Below, one piece after another: positions 5,191 to 5,330 of a stretch of DNA of 7,572 bases; position 1 is the first letter of the stretch, and every line of letters starts with the position of its first letter. The notes beneath the pieces are model-generated. The model had not been told where the DNA came from. It saw nothing but the letters and a program-made list of their open reading frames with translations, and searched no databases. The stretch is from a virus. The DNA is taken from the IMG/VR virus record IMGVR_UViG_3300015603_000089, positions 1 through 7,572 of that record. The stretch is one strand, 5' to 3'. The position numbers and the translations under genes are program-made.

Positions 5191-5252
5191 GTGTGAGTGT
5201 GAGTGTGAGTGTGAGCATGTGTGAGTGTGAGTCTGAGTGTGAGTCTGAGCAT
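5191..5252. repeat. Hexanucleotide tandem array: (GTGTGA)4 GCAT (GTGTGA)2 GTCTGA GTGTGA GTCTGA GCAT
   Basis: Read directly. There are nine 6-nt units in two blocks, each block closed by GCAT. The + strand here is almost C-free. Confidence 0.95.
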
Positions 5253-5254
5253 CG

Positions 5255-5330
5255 CGTAAGAACGTAACAACGTAAGAACGTAACAACGTAACAACATGTG
5301 GAACAACGTAACAACGGAACAACGTAACAA
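5255..5330. repeat. Octanucleotide tandem array CGTAA(C/G)AA, 8 units with one 12-nt interruption
   Basis: The units are cgtaagaa cgtaacaa cgtaagaa cgtaacaa cgtaacaa [catgtggaacaa] cgtaacaa cggaacaa cgtaacaa. The array starts 2 nt after the hexamer array. The first four units form a 16-nt unit repeated twice. Confidence 0.95.

What the first reader, a model, noticed from the sequence alone, without database searches (positions are those of the whole stretch)
5191..5330. Back-to-back hexamer (GTGTGA)n and octamer (CGTAACAA)n arrays in the main non-coding region
Two tandem arrays of different period lie 2 nt apart. One has nine 6-nt units in two blocks, each closed by GCAT. The other has eight 8-nt units with a single 12-nt interruption. 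Both are strongly strand-asymmetric, and CATGTG occurs once inside each array (5216-5221 and 5295-5300). They sit between GC-rich hairpins, in the region that by position should hold the packaging signal and origins. Short-period arrays like this are not a standard part of inovirus intergenic regions. Possible roles are iteron-like multimerisation sites for Rep, the serine recombinase or the repressor, or a cooperative loading track for the ssDNA-binding protein on the packaged + strand. They could also be a slippage-prone length-variable tract that tunes origin or rep expression. All three minus-strand frames are open across the arrays only because of the repeat composition, not because they are coding.
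Basis: seen in the sequence. Interest (0 to 1): 0.65.

Follow-up and report, generated by a model that had tools for sequence, protein, structure and literature searches.

The report
Two repeat arrays form one hairpin
The two back-to-back repeat arrays in this filamentous phage are the two arms of one long, ladder-like hairpin on the packaged DNA strand, kept intact by matching mutations in at least seven related phages; I found no description of such a signal, and its job is still unknown.

Summary
They are not two independent iteron tracts. Each hexamer (G1 T2 S3 T4 G5 A6) pairs antiparallel with one octamer (C1 G2 T3 A4 A5 S6 A7 A8). GC-rich flanks close the structure with a stem of about 28 bp, giving one strand-specific hairpin at window 5162-5360.

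Seven lineages carry it: the window phage, L160, L166, L250 (a Rhodoferax ferrireducens prophage), L252, L097 and L241. Rung number ranges from 6 to 12 and is always equal in the two arms. All 232 modelled pairs in 58 rungs are Watson-Crick, and GTCTGA always faces CGTAAGAA. The + strand folds 10-18 kcal/mol better than the - strand in the six folded on both strands.

The element lies either between zot and rep or between pIII and pVI. It occurs with at least four unrelated Rep lineages, with or without a recombinase, stays internal in prophages, and is identical across independent assemblies. These facts rule out Rep, recombinase or repressor iterons, attP and a slippage-prone tract. A second sequence family (L003) has the same architecture.

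Function is inferred only: a modular protein-docking signal on the + strand, most likely for complementary-strand priming or assembly. An RNA-level role is not excluded.

The parts
5162..5190 (+). 5' arm of the outer closing stem (GCGCTCGGGGCTGGCTCGTATGACGTCCT). It pairs with 5332-5360.
   Evidence: DNA folds. About 27 pairs, including 5-6 G.T wobbles. Compensatory changes relative to L160 (GCGC/GCGC versus GCTGTT/AACAGC).
5191..5248 (+). Hexamer arm: 9 units GT[G/C]TGA, with a GCAT insertion at 5215-5218. This is the 5' arm of the ladder.
   Evidence: Rung pairing.
5216..5219 (+). CATG clamp between rungs 4 and 5. It pairs with CATG at 5295-5298 in the octamer arm.
   Evidence: In L160 the clamp is GCATG/CATGC, 5 bp.
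5249..5254 (+). GCATCG, centre of the apical loop. The unpaired stretch runs about 5247-5258.
5255..5331 (+). Octamer arm: 9 units CGTAA[C/G]AA (one is the 12-nt CATGTGGAACAA) plus the closing C at 5331. This is the 3' arm of the ladder.
   Evidence: Rung pairing.
5332..5360 (+). 3' arm of the outer closing stem (GGGGCGGCGTGCGTGCCTGCCTCGGGCGC).
5015..5087 (+). Context: conserved hairpin H1 (core GGGGTATGGGGGTG-AG-CACCCCCATG at 5045-5072). It is widespread in this phage clade whatever the Rep type, and is a candidate packaging signal or origin hairpin. It is not part of the ladder.
5390..5510 (+). Context: GC-rich hairpin (5390-5433), then an AT-rich core (5443-5476, about 94% identical in several Rep relatives) and TTTGGT repeats. 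This is the likely + origin and Rep-binding region, and it travels with the Rep module.

Best explanation
SHOWN. The hexamer array and the octamer array are the 5' and 3' arms of one imperfect hairpin of about 200 nt (window 5162-5360). It forms only in the + strand, which is both the packaged ssDNA and the sense of all the genes on this side of the genome. Each hexamer G1 T2 S3 T4 G5 A6 pairs with one octamer C1 G2 T3 A4 A5 S6 A7 A8. The pairs are T4:A5, S3:S6, T2:A8 and G1:C1 of the next octamer, with A7 bulged. G5 A6 faces G2 T3 A4, and T3 is the one base that varies freely. The window has nine such rungs, a CATG/CATG clamp, and a GC-rich outer stem of about 28 bp built from the flanks. Selection keeps the ladder in register: variants are always complementary, and unit gains or losses occur in both arms.

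INFERRED. The element is a modular cis-acting cassette. It is independent of the replication, integration and immunity genes. It can sit in either of two permissive gaps of the genome, after zot or between pIII and pVI. I think it works as a multivalent docking platform of 6-12 identical structured sites. The rung sequence stays invariant while phage proteins diverge to about 50% identity, which suggests a conserved, probably host-encoded, protein as the partner.

MY BEST GUESS for the process is the ssDNA stage of the life cycle. Most likely it is a minus-strand-origin or priming signal, analogous to Ff hairpins B/C and to plasmid single-strand origins (sso). Second choice is an accessory packaging or assembly signal.

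Rough confidence: hairpin structure about 0.9; protein-docking cassette about 0.5; minus-origin role about 0.3.
For: Pairing in the ladder:
- In 58 rungs from 7 lineages, all 232 modelled pairs are Watson-Crick. One search counts 230; the two 'GG' cells arise because I truncated the interrupted unit, and the real base is the C of CATG.
- Compensatory types are seen at every paired position: G:C<->C:G at S3:S6 (36 versus 22 rungs), T:A->C:G at 2:8 (3 rungs), G:C->A:T and T:A at 1:1', and T:A->C:G at 4:5.
- The 5'->3' order of G/C variants in the hexamer arm is the exact mirror-complement of the octamer arm in every lineage. An order-only permutation gives P = 1.4e-8 over four independent lineages.
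- Formal count on the four apical rungs of five lineages: 80/80 cells paired, 5 pairs and 8 cells changed on both sides, none changed on one side only. Covariation score is 0.325 against 0.104 in shuffles (0/500 reach it). There is no covariation in any of the six slid controls.
- Arm lengths are always equal: 9/9, 8/8, 6/6, 6/6, 8/8, 9/9 and 12/12. The window differs from L160 by one hexamer and by its partner octamer.

Outer stem and strand specificity:
- The flanks pair in every lineage even though their sequences are unrelated between clades.
- The + strand folds 10-18 kcal/mol better than the - strand (DNA parameters) in the six type A elements folded on both strands, and 27.5 better in L003 (L252 was folded only as a whole IGR containing a masked N run, where the strands did not differ).

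Modularity:
- The element is at zot-rep in the window phage, L160, L166, L250 and L252, and at pIII-pVI in L097, L241 and L243.
- The accompanying Reps are 74%, 30-32% or not detectably similar, or belong to the Rep_trans family.

Stability: the ladder is identical across 3, 5, 2 and 7 assemblies of four phages.

A second sequence family: L003 has the same architecture with 16-nt and 15-nt arrays, MFE -132 kcal/mol and z = -8.6. It shares the core 5'-CGTA/5'-GA(A)G.

Position: in the window the element lies between the conserved hairpin H1 and the Rep-linked + origin, the slot that the minus origin occupies in Ff phages (Ff order from established knowledge).
Against: - Nearest-neighbour thermodynamics do not favour the ladder. 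The array region alone folds worse than its shuffles (z = +2.58). Enforcing the rungs costs 8-21 kcal/mol relative to the DNA MFE. The ladder therefore needs non-canonical pairs that are not in the model (for example sheared G.A, which is my inference) or a bound protein.
- No sigma-70-like promoter elements or terminators were detected in or near it. No primase or RNA polymerase recognition feature could be identified.
- Many close relatives lack the element (L001, L002, L042, L168-L172), so it is not essential.
- The many G.T pairs in the outer stem, and the position inside an operon in L097, L241 and L003, fit an RNA-level role equally well.
- No binding protein has been identified. The function is entirely inferred.
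Confidence: 0.55

Rival explanations
1. RNA-level element. The same hairpin forms in the sense transcript. There it acts as an intercistronic or 3'-UTR regulator: an attenuator, a processing site, an mRNA stabiliser, or a multi-site binding platform or sponge for an RNA-binding protein.
For: The folded strand is the mRNA-sense strand. In L097, L241 and L003 the element lies inside the pIII-pVI-zot operon and must be transcribed. G.U-compatible wobble pairs are frequent in the outer stems, about 5 of 27-32 pairs. With RNA parameters the MFE itself recovers part of the ladder. In L097 and L241 the 3' arm ends in a T6 run, like an intrinsic terminator. From memory only, the rung loop 5'-GUA/5'-GA(A) resembles bulged-G or loop-E type motifs.
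Against: No Rfam family matches. Window, L160, L166 and L250 have no T-run after the hairpin, and no terminator was detected. In the window the element follows the last gene of the operon, in the region that carries the ssDNA signals. Among the 232 rung pairs there is not one G.U, which is unusual for an RNA helix evolving through wobble intermediates.
Confidence: 0.2
2. Packaging or assembly signal, either the principal one or an enhancer. The long rod-like hairpin escapes coating by the ssDNA-binding protein and is recognised by the morphogenesis proteins.
For: The element is always adjacent to morphogenesis genes, either after zot or between pIII and pVI. All carriers share a related mcp-pIII-pVI-zot block and differ in everything else. 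Packaging-signal position is known to vary between inovirus genomes, including a site inside a gIII homologue (bioRxiv 10.1101/2023.12.30.573655). The H1 motif searched for was not found in L097 or L003.
Against: The window phage, L160, L166 and L250 already carry the widely conserved hairpin H1, a better packaging-signal candidate. The rung sequence is invariant while Zot and pVI diverge to 50-60% identity, which does not suggest coevolution with phage proteins. Relatives at 63-69% Zot identity lack the ladder.
Confidence: 0.15
3. One reading: two independent arrays of iterons or operators on dsDNA that multimerise Rep, the serine recombinase or the repressor; or a slippage-prone, length-variable tract that tunes the origin or rep expression.
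For: Short-period direct repeats are typical protein-binding arrays. Unit number does differ between lineages, from 6 to 12.
Against: The element co-occurs with at least four unrelated Rep lineages and with phages lacking the recombinase and repressor. L042, with an 81%-identical Rep, lacks it. In L097 and L241 it lies far from any origin. It is internal in prophages L166 and L250, so it is not attP. It shows no length polymorphism across 17 assemblies. The mirror covariation and the strand asymmetry of folding cannot be explained by binding to dsDNA.
Confidence: 0.03
4. Selfish or neutral foldback DNA. A small mobile or recombining palindromic element has spread among co-infecting phages. Its complementarity is maintained by mutational mechanisms, such as template switching in quasi-palindromes or deletion across hairpins, rather than by function.
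For: Distribution among close relatives is patchy. There are two insertion positions. Array sequences are identical in phages whose flanks are unrelated.
Against: Template switching would erase the 6/8 asymmetry and the conserved unpaired bases, yet these are kept in all 58 rungs. The window/L160 difference is two separate indels at mirror positions, not one apical deletion. The outer stems have been rebuilt from unrelated sequence in each clade. There are no transposase-type ends, target duplications or flank homology.
Confidence: 0.07

Closest known systems
Ff (f1/M13/fd) intergenic-region hairpins: packaging signal [A] and minus-strand origin [B, C]
   Same: Imperfect hairpins that exist only in the + strand. 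They lie between the morphogenesis genes and the + origin. They are cis-acting and orientation-dependent. In Ff the minus origin is dispensable at a cost.
   Different: The Ff hairpins are not built from tandem arrays and have no periodic rung structure. There is no sequence similarity (no INPHARED match). The ladder is optional among close relatives and moves to the pIII-pVI junction in one clade.
Single-strand origins (sso) of rolling-circle plasmids
   Same: Long, strand- and orientation-specific imperfect hairpins of 150-300 nt. They depend on host factors, are independent of the plasmid's Rep, and are exchanged between replicons as cassettes at variable positions.
   Different: sso types are defined by particular conserved motifs (for example RS_B and CS-6 in ssoA; from memory), which I could not test and did not see. 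None is known to be a ladder of two different-period arrays.
Packaging signal of Xanthomonas integrative inoviruses (phiLf-UK SL4; bioRxiv 10.1101/2023.12.30.573655) and its binding protein PSB15 (bioRxiv 10.1101/2024.03.19.585677)
   Same: An inovirus cis signal that is a DNA hairpin. Its genome position differs between related phages, including a site inside a gIII homologue, and it is functionally interchangeable.
   Different: It is 20-26 nt long with a GC-rich consensus stem, and it is orientation-independent. The ladder is about 200 nt, strand-specific and periodic. No PSB15 (DUF3653) homologue was looked for successfully here.
Folded-ssDNA recombination sites: CTXphi attP(+) and integron attC
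   Same: They function only as folded single strands, with mismatches and extrahelical bases that confer strand choice.
   Different: Those sites carry tyrosine-recombinase binding boxes and end up at element boundaries. The ladder is internal in prophages L166 and L250. The phage's recombinase is a serine resolvase-type enzyme, and L097 has none.
Iterons, and Rep-binding short repeats inside hairpins (for example the AAV ITR GAGC repeats, or geminivirus and circovirus iterons)
   Same: Short-period repeats, in some cases within a hairpin stem, that load several copies of a protein.
   Different: Those repeats covary with their cognate HUH Rep and abut the nick site. The ladder is independent of Rep family and of distance to the origin.

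Membership tests
Rep-binding iterons of rolling-circle replicons | Repeats co-occur and covary with the cognate Rep | tested here: not met
   The same rung sequence occurs with Reps 74% identical, 30-32% identical, not detectably similar, and of the Rep_trans family. L042, with an 81%-identical Rep, lacks the arrays.
Rep-binding iterons of rolling-circle replicons | Repeats lie next to the nick site or origin core | tested here: not met
   The window arrays lie 110-250 nt upstream of the Rep-linked conserved core at 5443-5500. In L097 and L241 they sit between pIII and pVI.
attP of the serine recombinase | The site ends up at the prophage boundaries after integration | tested here: not met
   The ladder is internal in L166 and in the Rhodoferax prophage L250. 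Host genes begin after the resolvase gene.
Slippage-prone contingency tract (microsatellite) | Unit-number polymorphism among near-identical genomes or samples | tested here: not met
   The arrays are identical in 3 assemblies of the window phage, 5 of L160, 2 of L166 and 7 of L097. Read-level data were not available.
Strand-specific ssDNA hairpin signals of inoviruses (Ff-type packaging signal or minus origin) | Imperfect hairpin that forms in the + strand only, with pairing under selection | tested here: met
   232/232 Watson-Crick rung pairs with compensatory changes. The + strand folds 10-18 kcal/mol better than the - strand in the six elements folded on both strands.
Strand-specific ssDNA hairpin signals of inoviruses (Ff-type packaging signal or minus origin) | Located in the main intergenic region between morphogenesis genes and the + origin | tested here: inconclusive
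   Met in the window phage, L160, L166, L250 and L252. Not met in L097, L241, L243 and L003, where it is at pIII-pVI.
Strand-specific ssDNA hairpin signals of inoviruses (Ff-type packaging signal or minus origin) | Required in cis for packaging, or directs RNA-primer synthesis on + ssDNA | not testable with these tools
   Needs transducing-particle assays or in vitro priming. No sigma-70-like elements were found.
RCR-plasmid single-strand origins (ssoA, ssoU and others) | Family-specific conserved motifs (for example RS_B and CS-6) | not tested
The resemblance is architectural only: a long strand-specific hairpin that moves as a cassette.
Known structured RNA families (Rfam 15) | Match to a covariance model | tested here: not met
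   cmscan of the whole window at E<=1 gave only one spurious snoRNA hit, elsewhere in the window.

The most novel reading that the evidence does not exclude
The ladder is a new class of cis element: a self-registering array of 6-12 identical non-canonical DNA (or RNA) motifs. Each motif is a 4-bp mini-helix with a bulged A plus a GA/GNA purine loop. The array is presented on a hairpin scaffold and recruits or titrates many copies of one conserved host protein. Possible partners are a primase or primosome component, SSB or RecA-pathway proteins, or a defence sensor of phage ssDNA. On this reading it acts as a multivalent loading pad or decoy rather than as a classical origin or packaging hairpin. 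The independent L003 family, which has different spacers but the same CGTA/GA(A)G core, would mean the motif rather than the sequence context is what is recognised.
Probability: 0.25. Interest if true: 0.85.

Novelty: new variant of a known kind. Interest (0 to 1): 0.72.

Why it matters
Outside the Ff coliphages and a few Xanthomonas phages, the cis signals that inoviruses use for packaging and complementary-strand synthesis are essentially unmapped. This work defines a large, sharply bounded element supported by covariation. It recurs in Comamonadaceae-type inoviruses, moves as a cassette, and is independent of the replication and integration genes. That makes it an immediate experimental handle on ssDNA-stage biology in environmental filamentous phages.

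It is also a clean natural example of a structure evolving by paired unit gains and losses in two arrays of different period. This is a mode of compensatory evolution I have not seen described.

There is a practical lesson for genome scanning. Adjacent tandem arrays with different periods should be tested for mutual complementarity before being called iterons or microsatellites. Standard MFE folding misses this structure.

One carrier is a prophage in a sequenced Rhodoferax ferrireducens genome, so the questions are testable.

Tried and rejected
- BLAST of the whole window and of the IGR against INPHARED phages: no match.
- Reading the arrays as in-situ slippage junk at the junction of two mosaic modules. 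I favoured this until. It was rejected when the same composite turned up at another genome position (L097) and in orthologous position in L160 and L166.
- A fixed requirement for nine units (window, L097 and L003 all have about 9+9). Rejected: L166 and L250 have 6, L160 and L252 have 8, and L241 has 12. What is conserved is equality of the two arms.
- A relic pIII 3' end upstream of the window arrays (the TAGCGC..GGGGCT resemblance to L097). Not supported: BLAST homology stops at the array boundaries.
- Exact and degenerate pattern scans of IMG/VR for either arm and for the L003-type arm. Only L097, and L003 itself, are related phages. Other hits are chance matches or unrelated microsatellites.
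- A search for analogous long hairpins downstream of H1 in relatives without the ladder. None is consistent; several have a reverse-strand gene or ordinary iterons there.
- Arrays in L002, L021, L026-28, L041, L042 and L044. These are coding (L041 Ser-rich), ordinary iteron-type or promoter-proximal repeats, not ladders.
- Ideas considered and dropped for lack of any test or fit: CRP half-sites (TGTGA), Neisseria DUS resemblance (GTCTGA), Chi-like octamers, TRAP-like GAG spacing, Hfq ARN motifs, rut sites, Z-DNA and G-quadruplex.
- tRNA scan: none. Promoter and terminator scan of 4900-5700: none.
- Literature searches for a described equivalent: none found.

Full report
CONTEXT. The window is a complete circular inovirus contig. 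Its first and last 99 nt are identical, so the genome is 7473 nt. On the + strand it encodes an unknown 110-aa protein, an ssDNA-binding protein, a type IV pilin, the major coat protein, a 115-aa protein, a TspB-like pIII, pVI (DUF2523) and Zot/pI (3939-4979). A 604-nt intergenic region follows. After it come a rolling-circle Rep (PF23343), a serine recombinase and, on the - strand, a repressor-like protein. Named Zot homologues come from Rhodoferax, Variovorax and Acidovorax, so the hosts are Comamonadaceae. The genome is mosaic. Its rep-recombinase-repressor-ssb-pilin block resembles L042 (Rep 81%). Its coat-pIII-pVI-zot block resembles L001 and L002 (Zot 66%).

OBSERVATION. The arrays are exactly as described and far beyond chance. 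Three independent assemblies of the same phage agree base for base across the region.

FIRST IMPRESSION, LATER OVERTURNED. No relative in IMG/VR or the JGI metagenomes showed sequence similarity to 5088-5408. Two flanking pieces of the IGR were conserved. One is a hairpin just after zot (H1, 5015-5087), which travels with the morphogenesis block. The other is an AT-rich core with TTTGGT repeats (5409-5510), which travels with Rep. A few relatives had unrelated short arrays nearby. This looked like lineage-specific slippage at a module junction.

THE TURNING POINT. An exact-pattern scan for two octamers found L097, a related inovirus with Zot 52-55%, pVI about 60% and coat protein 79% identity. 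L097 carries both arrays, in the same order and the same orientation relative to the genes. There they lie between pIII and pVI. Homology stops exactly at the array boundaries. L097 has a Rep with no BLASTP similarity to the window's. It has a different ssDNA-binding family (PF02303) and no recombinase or repressor homologue. Zot homologues at 72% and 71% identity led to L160-L165 and L166/L167. These carry the composite at the orthologous zot-rep position, with 8+8 and 6+6 units.

THE STRUCTURE. Read the hexamer variants 5'->3' and the octamer variants 3'->5'. GTGTGA then always faces CGTAACAA, and GTCTGA always faces CGTAAGAA. This holds for 9/9, 8/8, 6/6 and 9/9 units. The GCAT interruption of the hexamer arm faces the CATG(T/C) interruption of the octamer arm. 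The window differs from L160 by one hexamer and by exactly its partner octamer.

More lineages extended the pattern.
- L241 has 12+12 units at pIII-pVI and a Rep_trans-type Rep. It contains GCCTGA facing CGTAAGAG.
- L250 is a Rhodoferax ferrireducens prophage with 6+6 units.
- L252 has 8 rungs, including GTGCGA facing CGTAGACA and TCGTGA facing CGTAACAG.

These variants fix the register: G1:C1 of the next octamer, T2:A8, A7 bulged, S3:S6 and T4:A5. G5 A6 lies opposite G2 T3 A4. Octamer T3 is the only position that varies freely (to G, A or C) without a partner change.

Over 58 rungs all 232 pairs are Watson-Crick. One search counts 230; the two exceptions are an artefact of how I wrote the interrupted unit. 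A formal count on the four apical rungs of five lineages gives 80/80 paired cells, 5 pairs with changes on both sides, no one-sided changes and no covariation in slid controls. A permutation of order alone gives P = 1.4e-8.

In every lineage the flanks close the ladder with a 25-38-bp stem. The stem sequences are unrelated between clades and show compensatory changes within clades. G.T wobbles in the outer stems make folding strand-specific. The + strand is 10-18 kcal/mol more stable than the - strand in the six type A elements folded on both strands; L252 could not be compared because its flank contains a masked N run.

A SECOND FAMILY. L003 (Zot 63%) carries a 16-nt array and a 15-nt array between pIII and pVI. 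Together they fold into a very stable ladder of 9-10 rungs (MFE -132 kcal/mol, z = -8.6). Its spacers are variable and mutually complementary. Its conserved core, 5'-CGTA opposite 5'-GAAG (C:G, G.A, T:A, A.G), is the window-type core 5'-CGTA opposite 5'-GAG with one extra A. The architecture and a core motif therefore recur in unrelated sequence.

WHAT THIS EXCLUDES. Rep, recombinase or repressor iterons are excluded by the lack of co-occurrence. attP is excluded because the ladder is internal in prophages. A hypervariable contingency tract is excluded because the arrays are identical in 17 assemblies of four phages. Coding is excluded by the 8- and 16-nt periods. Known RNA families are excluded.

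WHAT REMAINS UNCERTAIN. Standard energy models do not favour the rungs (z = +2.58 for the arrays alone; 8-21 kcal/mol penalty when enforced). The 5'-YGAR-3' context on both strands would allow tandem sheared G.A pairs with T3 flipped out. That is my inference from established DNA structural chemistry and is not tested. Alternatively, a protein stabilises the ladder.

The rung sequence is invariant while phage proteins diverge to about 50% identity. The element is also independent of every non-structural gene. Both points suggest a conserved host factor. A strand-specific, relocatable, dispensable long hairpin that in the window sits between the H1 hairpin and the + origin most resembles a minus-strand origin or plasmid-sso-type signal. 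An accessory packaging signal is possible, since packaging-signal position is known to vary in Xanthomonas inoviruses. An RNA-level intercistronic element is also a live alternative. I could not separate these computationally.

VERDICT. The finding is upgraded from two odd microsatellites to one covariation-proven, modular ladder hairpin present in at least seven (type A) plus one (type B) inovirus lineages. I found no description of it in the literature held here.

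Noticed in passing
window 924-1355 (+): The phage encodes a complete type IV pilin (N_methyl + Pilin domains; [18 protein letters not shown]). 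It sits between the ssDNA-binding protein and the major coat protein. Homologues occur in the related contigs L042 and L162.
   Followed up: partly
window 5015-5087 (core 5045-5072): Hairpin H1, GGGGTATGGGG-loop-CCCCATG, preceded by AGCGACTAGCGTTAACC. It is conserved in about 20 related phages whatever the Rep family, including a Rep_trans phage (L169). In L044 it sits at a different genome position. It is a candidate packaging signal or origin hairpin for the whole clade.
   Followed up: partly
window 5443-5548: An AT-rich core (TAATTTATTTATAGAACACTTTAG) is 87-94% identical in the closer Rep relatives. It is followed by CTTTGGT/TTTGGT repeats shared with L043 and preceded by a 14-bp GC hairpin (5390-5433). 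This is probably the + origin with the true Rep-binding repeats.
   Followed up: partly
window 73-120: Two 23-nt direct repeats, TTGCATAGAGTATGCAAAAACGG, each containing the palindrome TTGCATA..TATGCAA. They lie in the divergent region between the repressor-like gene and the first + strand gene, and are probably operators.
   Followed up: no
window 1-99 and 7474-7572: An exact 99-nt terminal direct repeat, which is an assembly overlap of a circular genome. The true length is 7473 nt. The genome is a mosaic of a Rep/immunity block (L042-like) and a morphogenesis block (L001/L002/L160-like).
   Followed up: yes
L003 4649-5010: A second family of ladder hairpin: a 16-nt array against a 15-nt array, about 9-10 rungs, between pIII and pVI, and very stable (MFE -132 kcal/mol, z -8.6). 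The variable 6-bp spacers are mutually complementary. The core is CGTA/GAAG.
   Followed up: partly
L169 about 3190-3470: Seven direct repeats of about 39 nt (GCCCACAAAGTGACTGTCTTCGAYGNTCGATCAATNCA), just downstream of H1 and upstream of a Rep_trans-type Rep. This is an ordinary iteron array and a useful contrast to the ladder.
   Followed up: no
L242 1-50; L243 1-30: Two Logan contigs of L241-like phages break inside the octamer arm. L242 begins with an Illumina adapter remnant (AGACGTGTGCTCTTCCGATCT). The ladder is therefore a frequent assembly break-point, and its prevalence is probably underestimated.
   Followed up: no
L250 3300-10520: A complete ladder-bearing prophage in Rhodoferax ferrireducens GCA_003347515.1 (contig QEII01000269.1). 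It is inserted between NAD kinase/recN-like genes and hrcA, with the resolvase gene at the right end. This is a sequenced host in which to test the element.
   Followed up: partly
L171 1460-2032 (-): A related phage contig encodes an H-NS-family protein (PF00816) immediately downstream of zot.
   Followed up: no
L002 4397-4530: A duplicated block of about 70 nt after zot. It contains TAAACTGTA direct repeats followed by an inverted copy. It looks like an operator or iteron, and is unrelated to the ladder.
   Followed up: no
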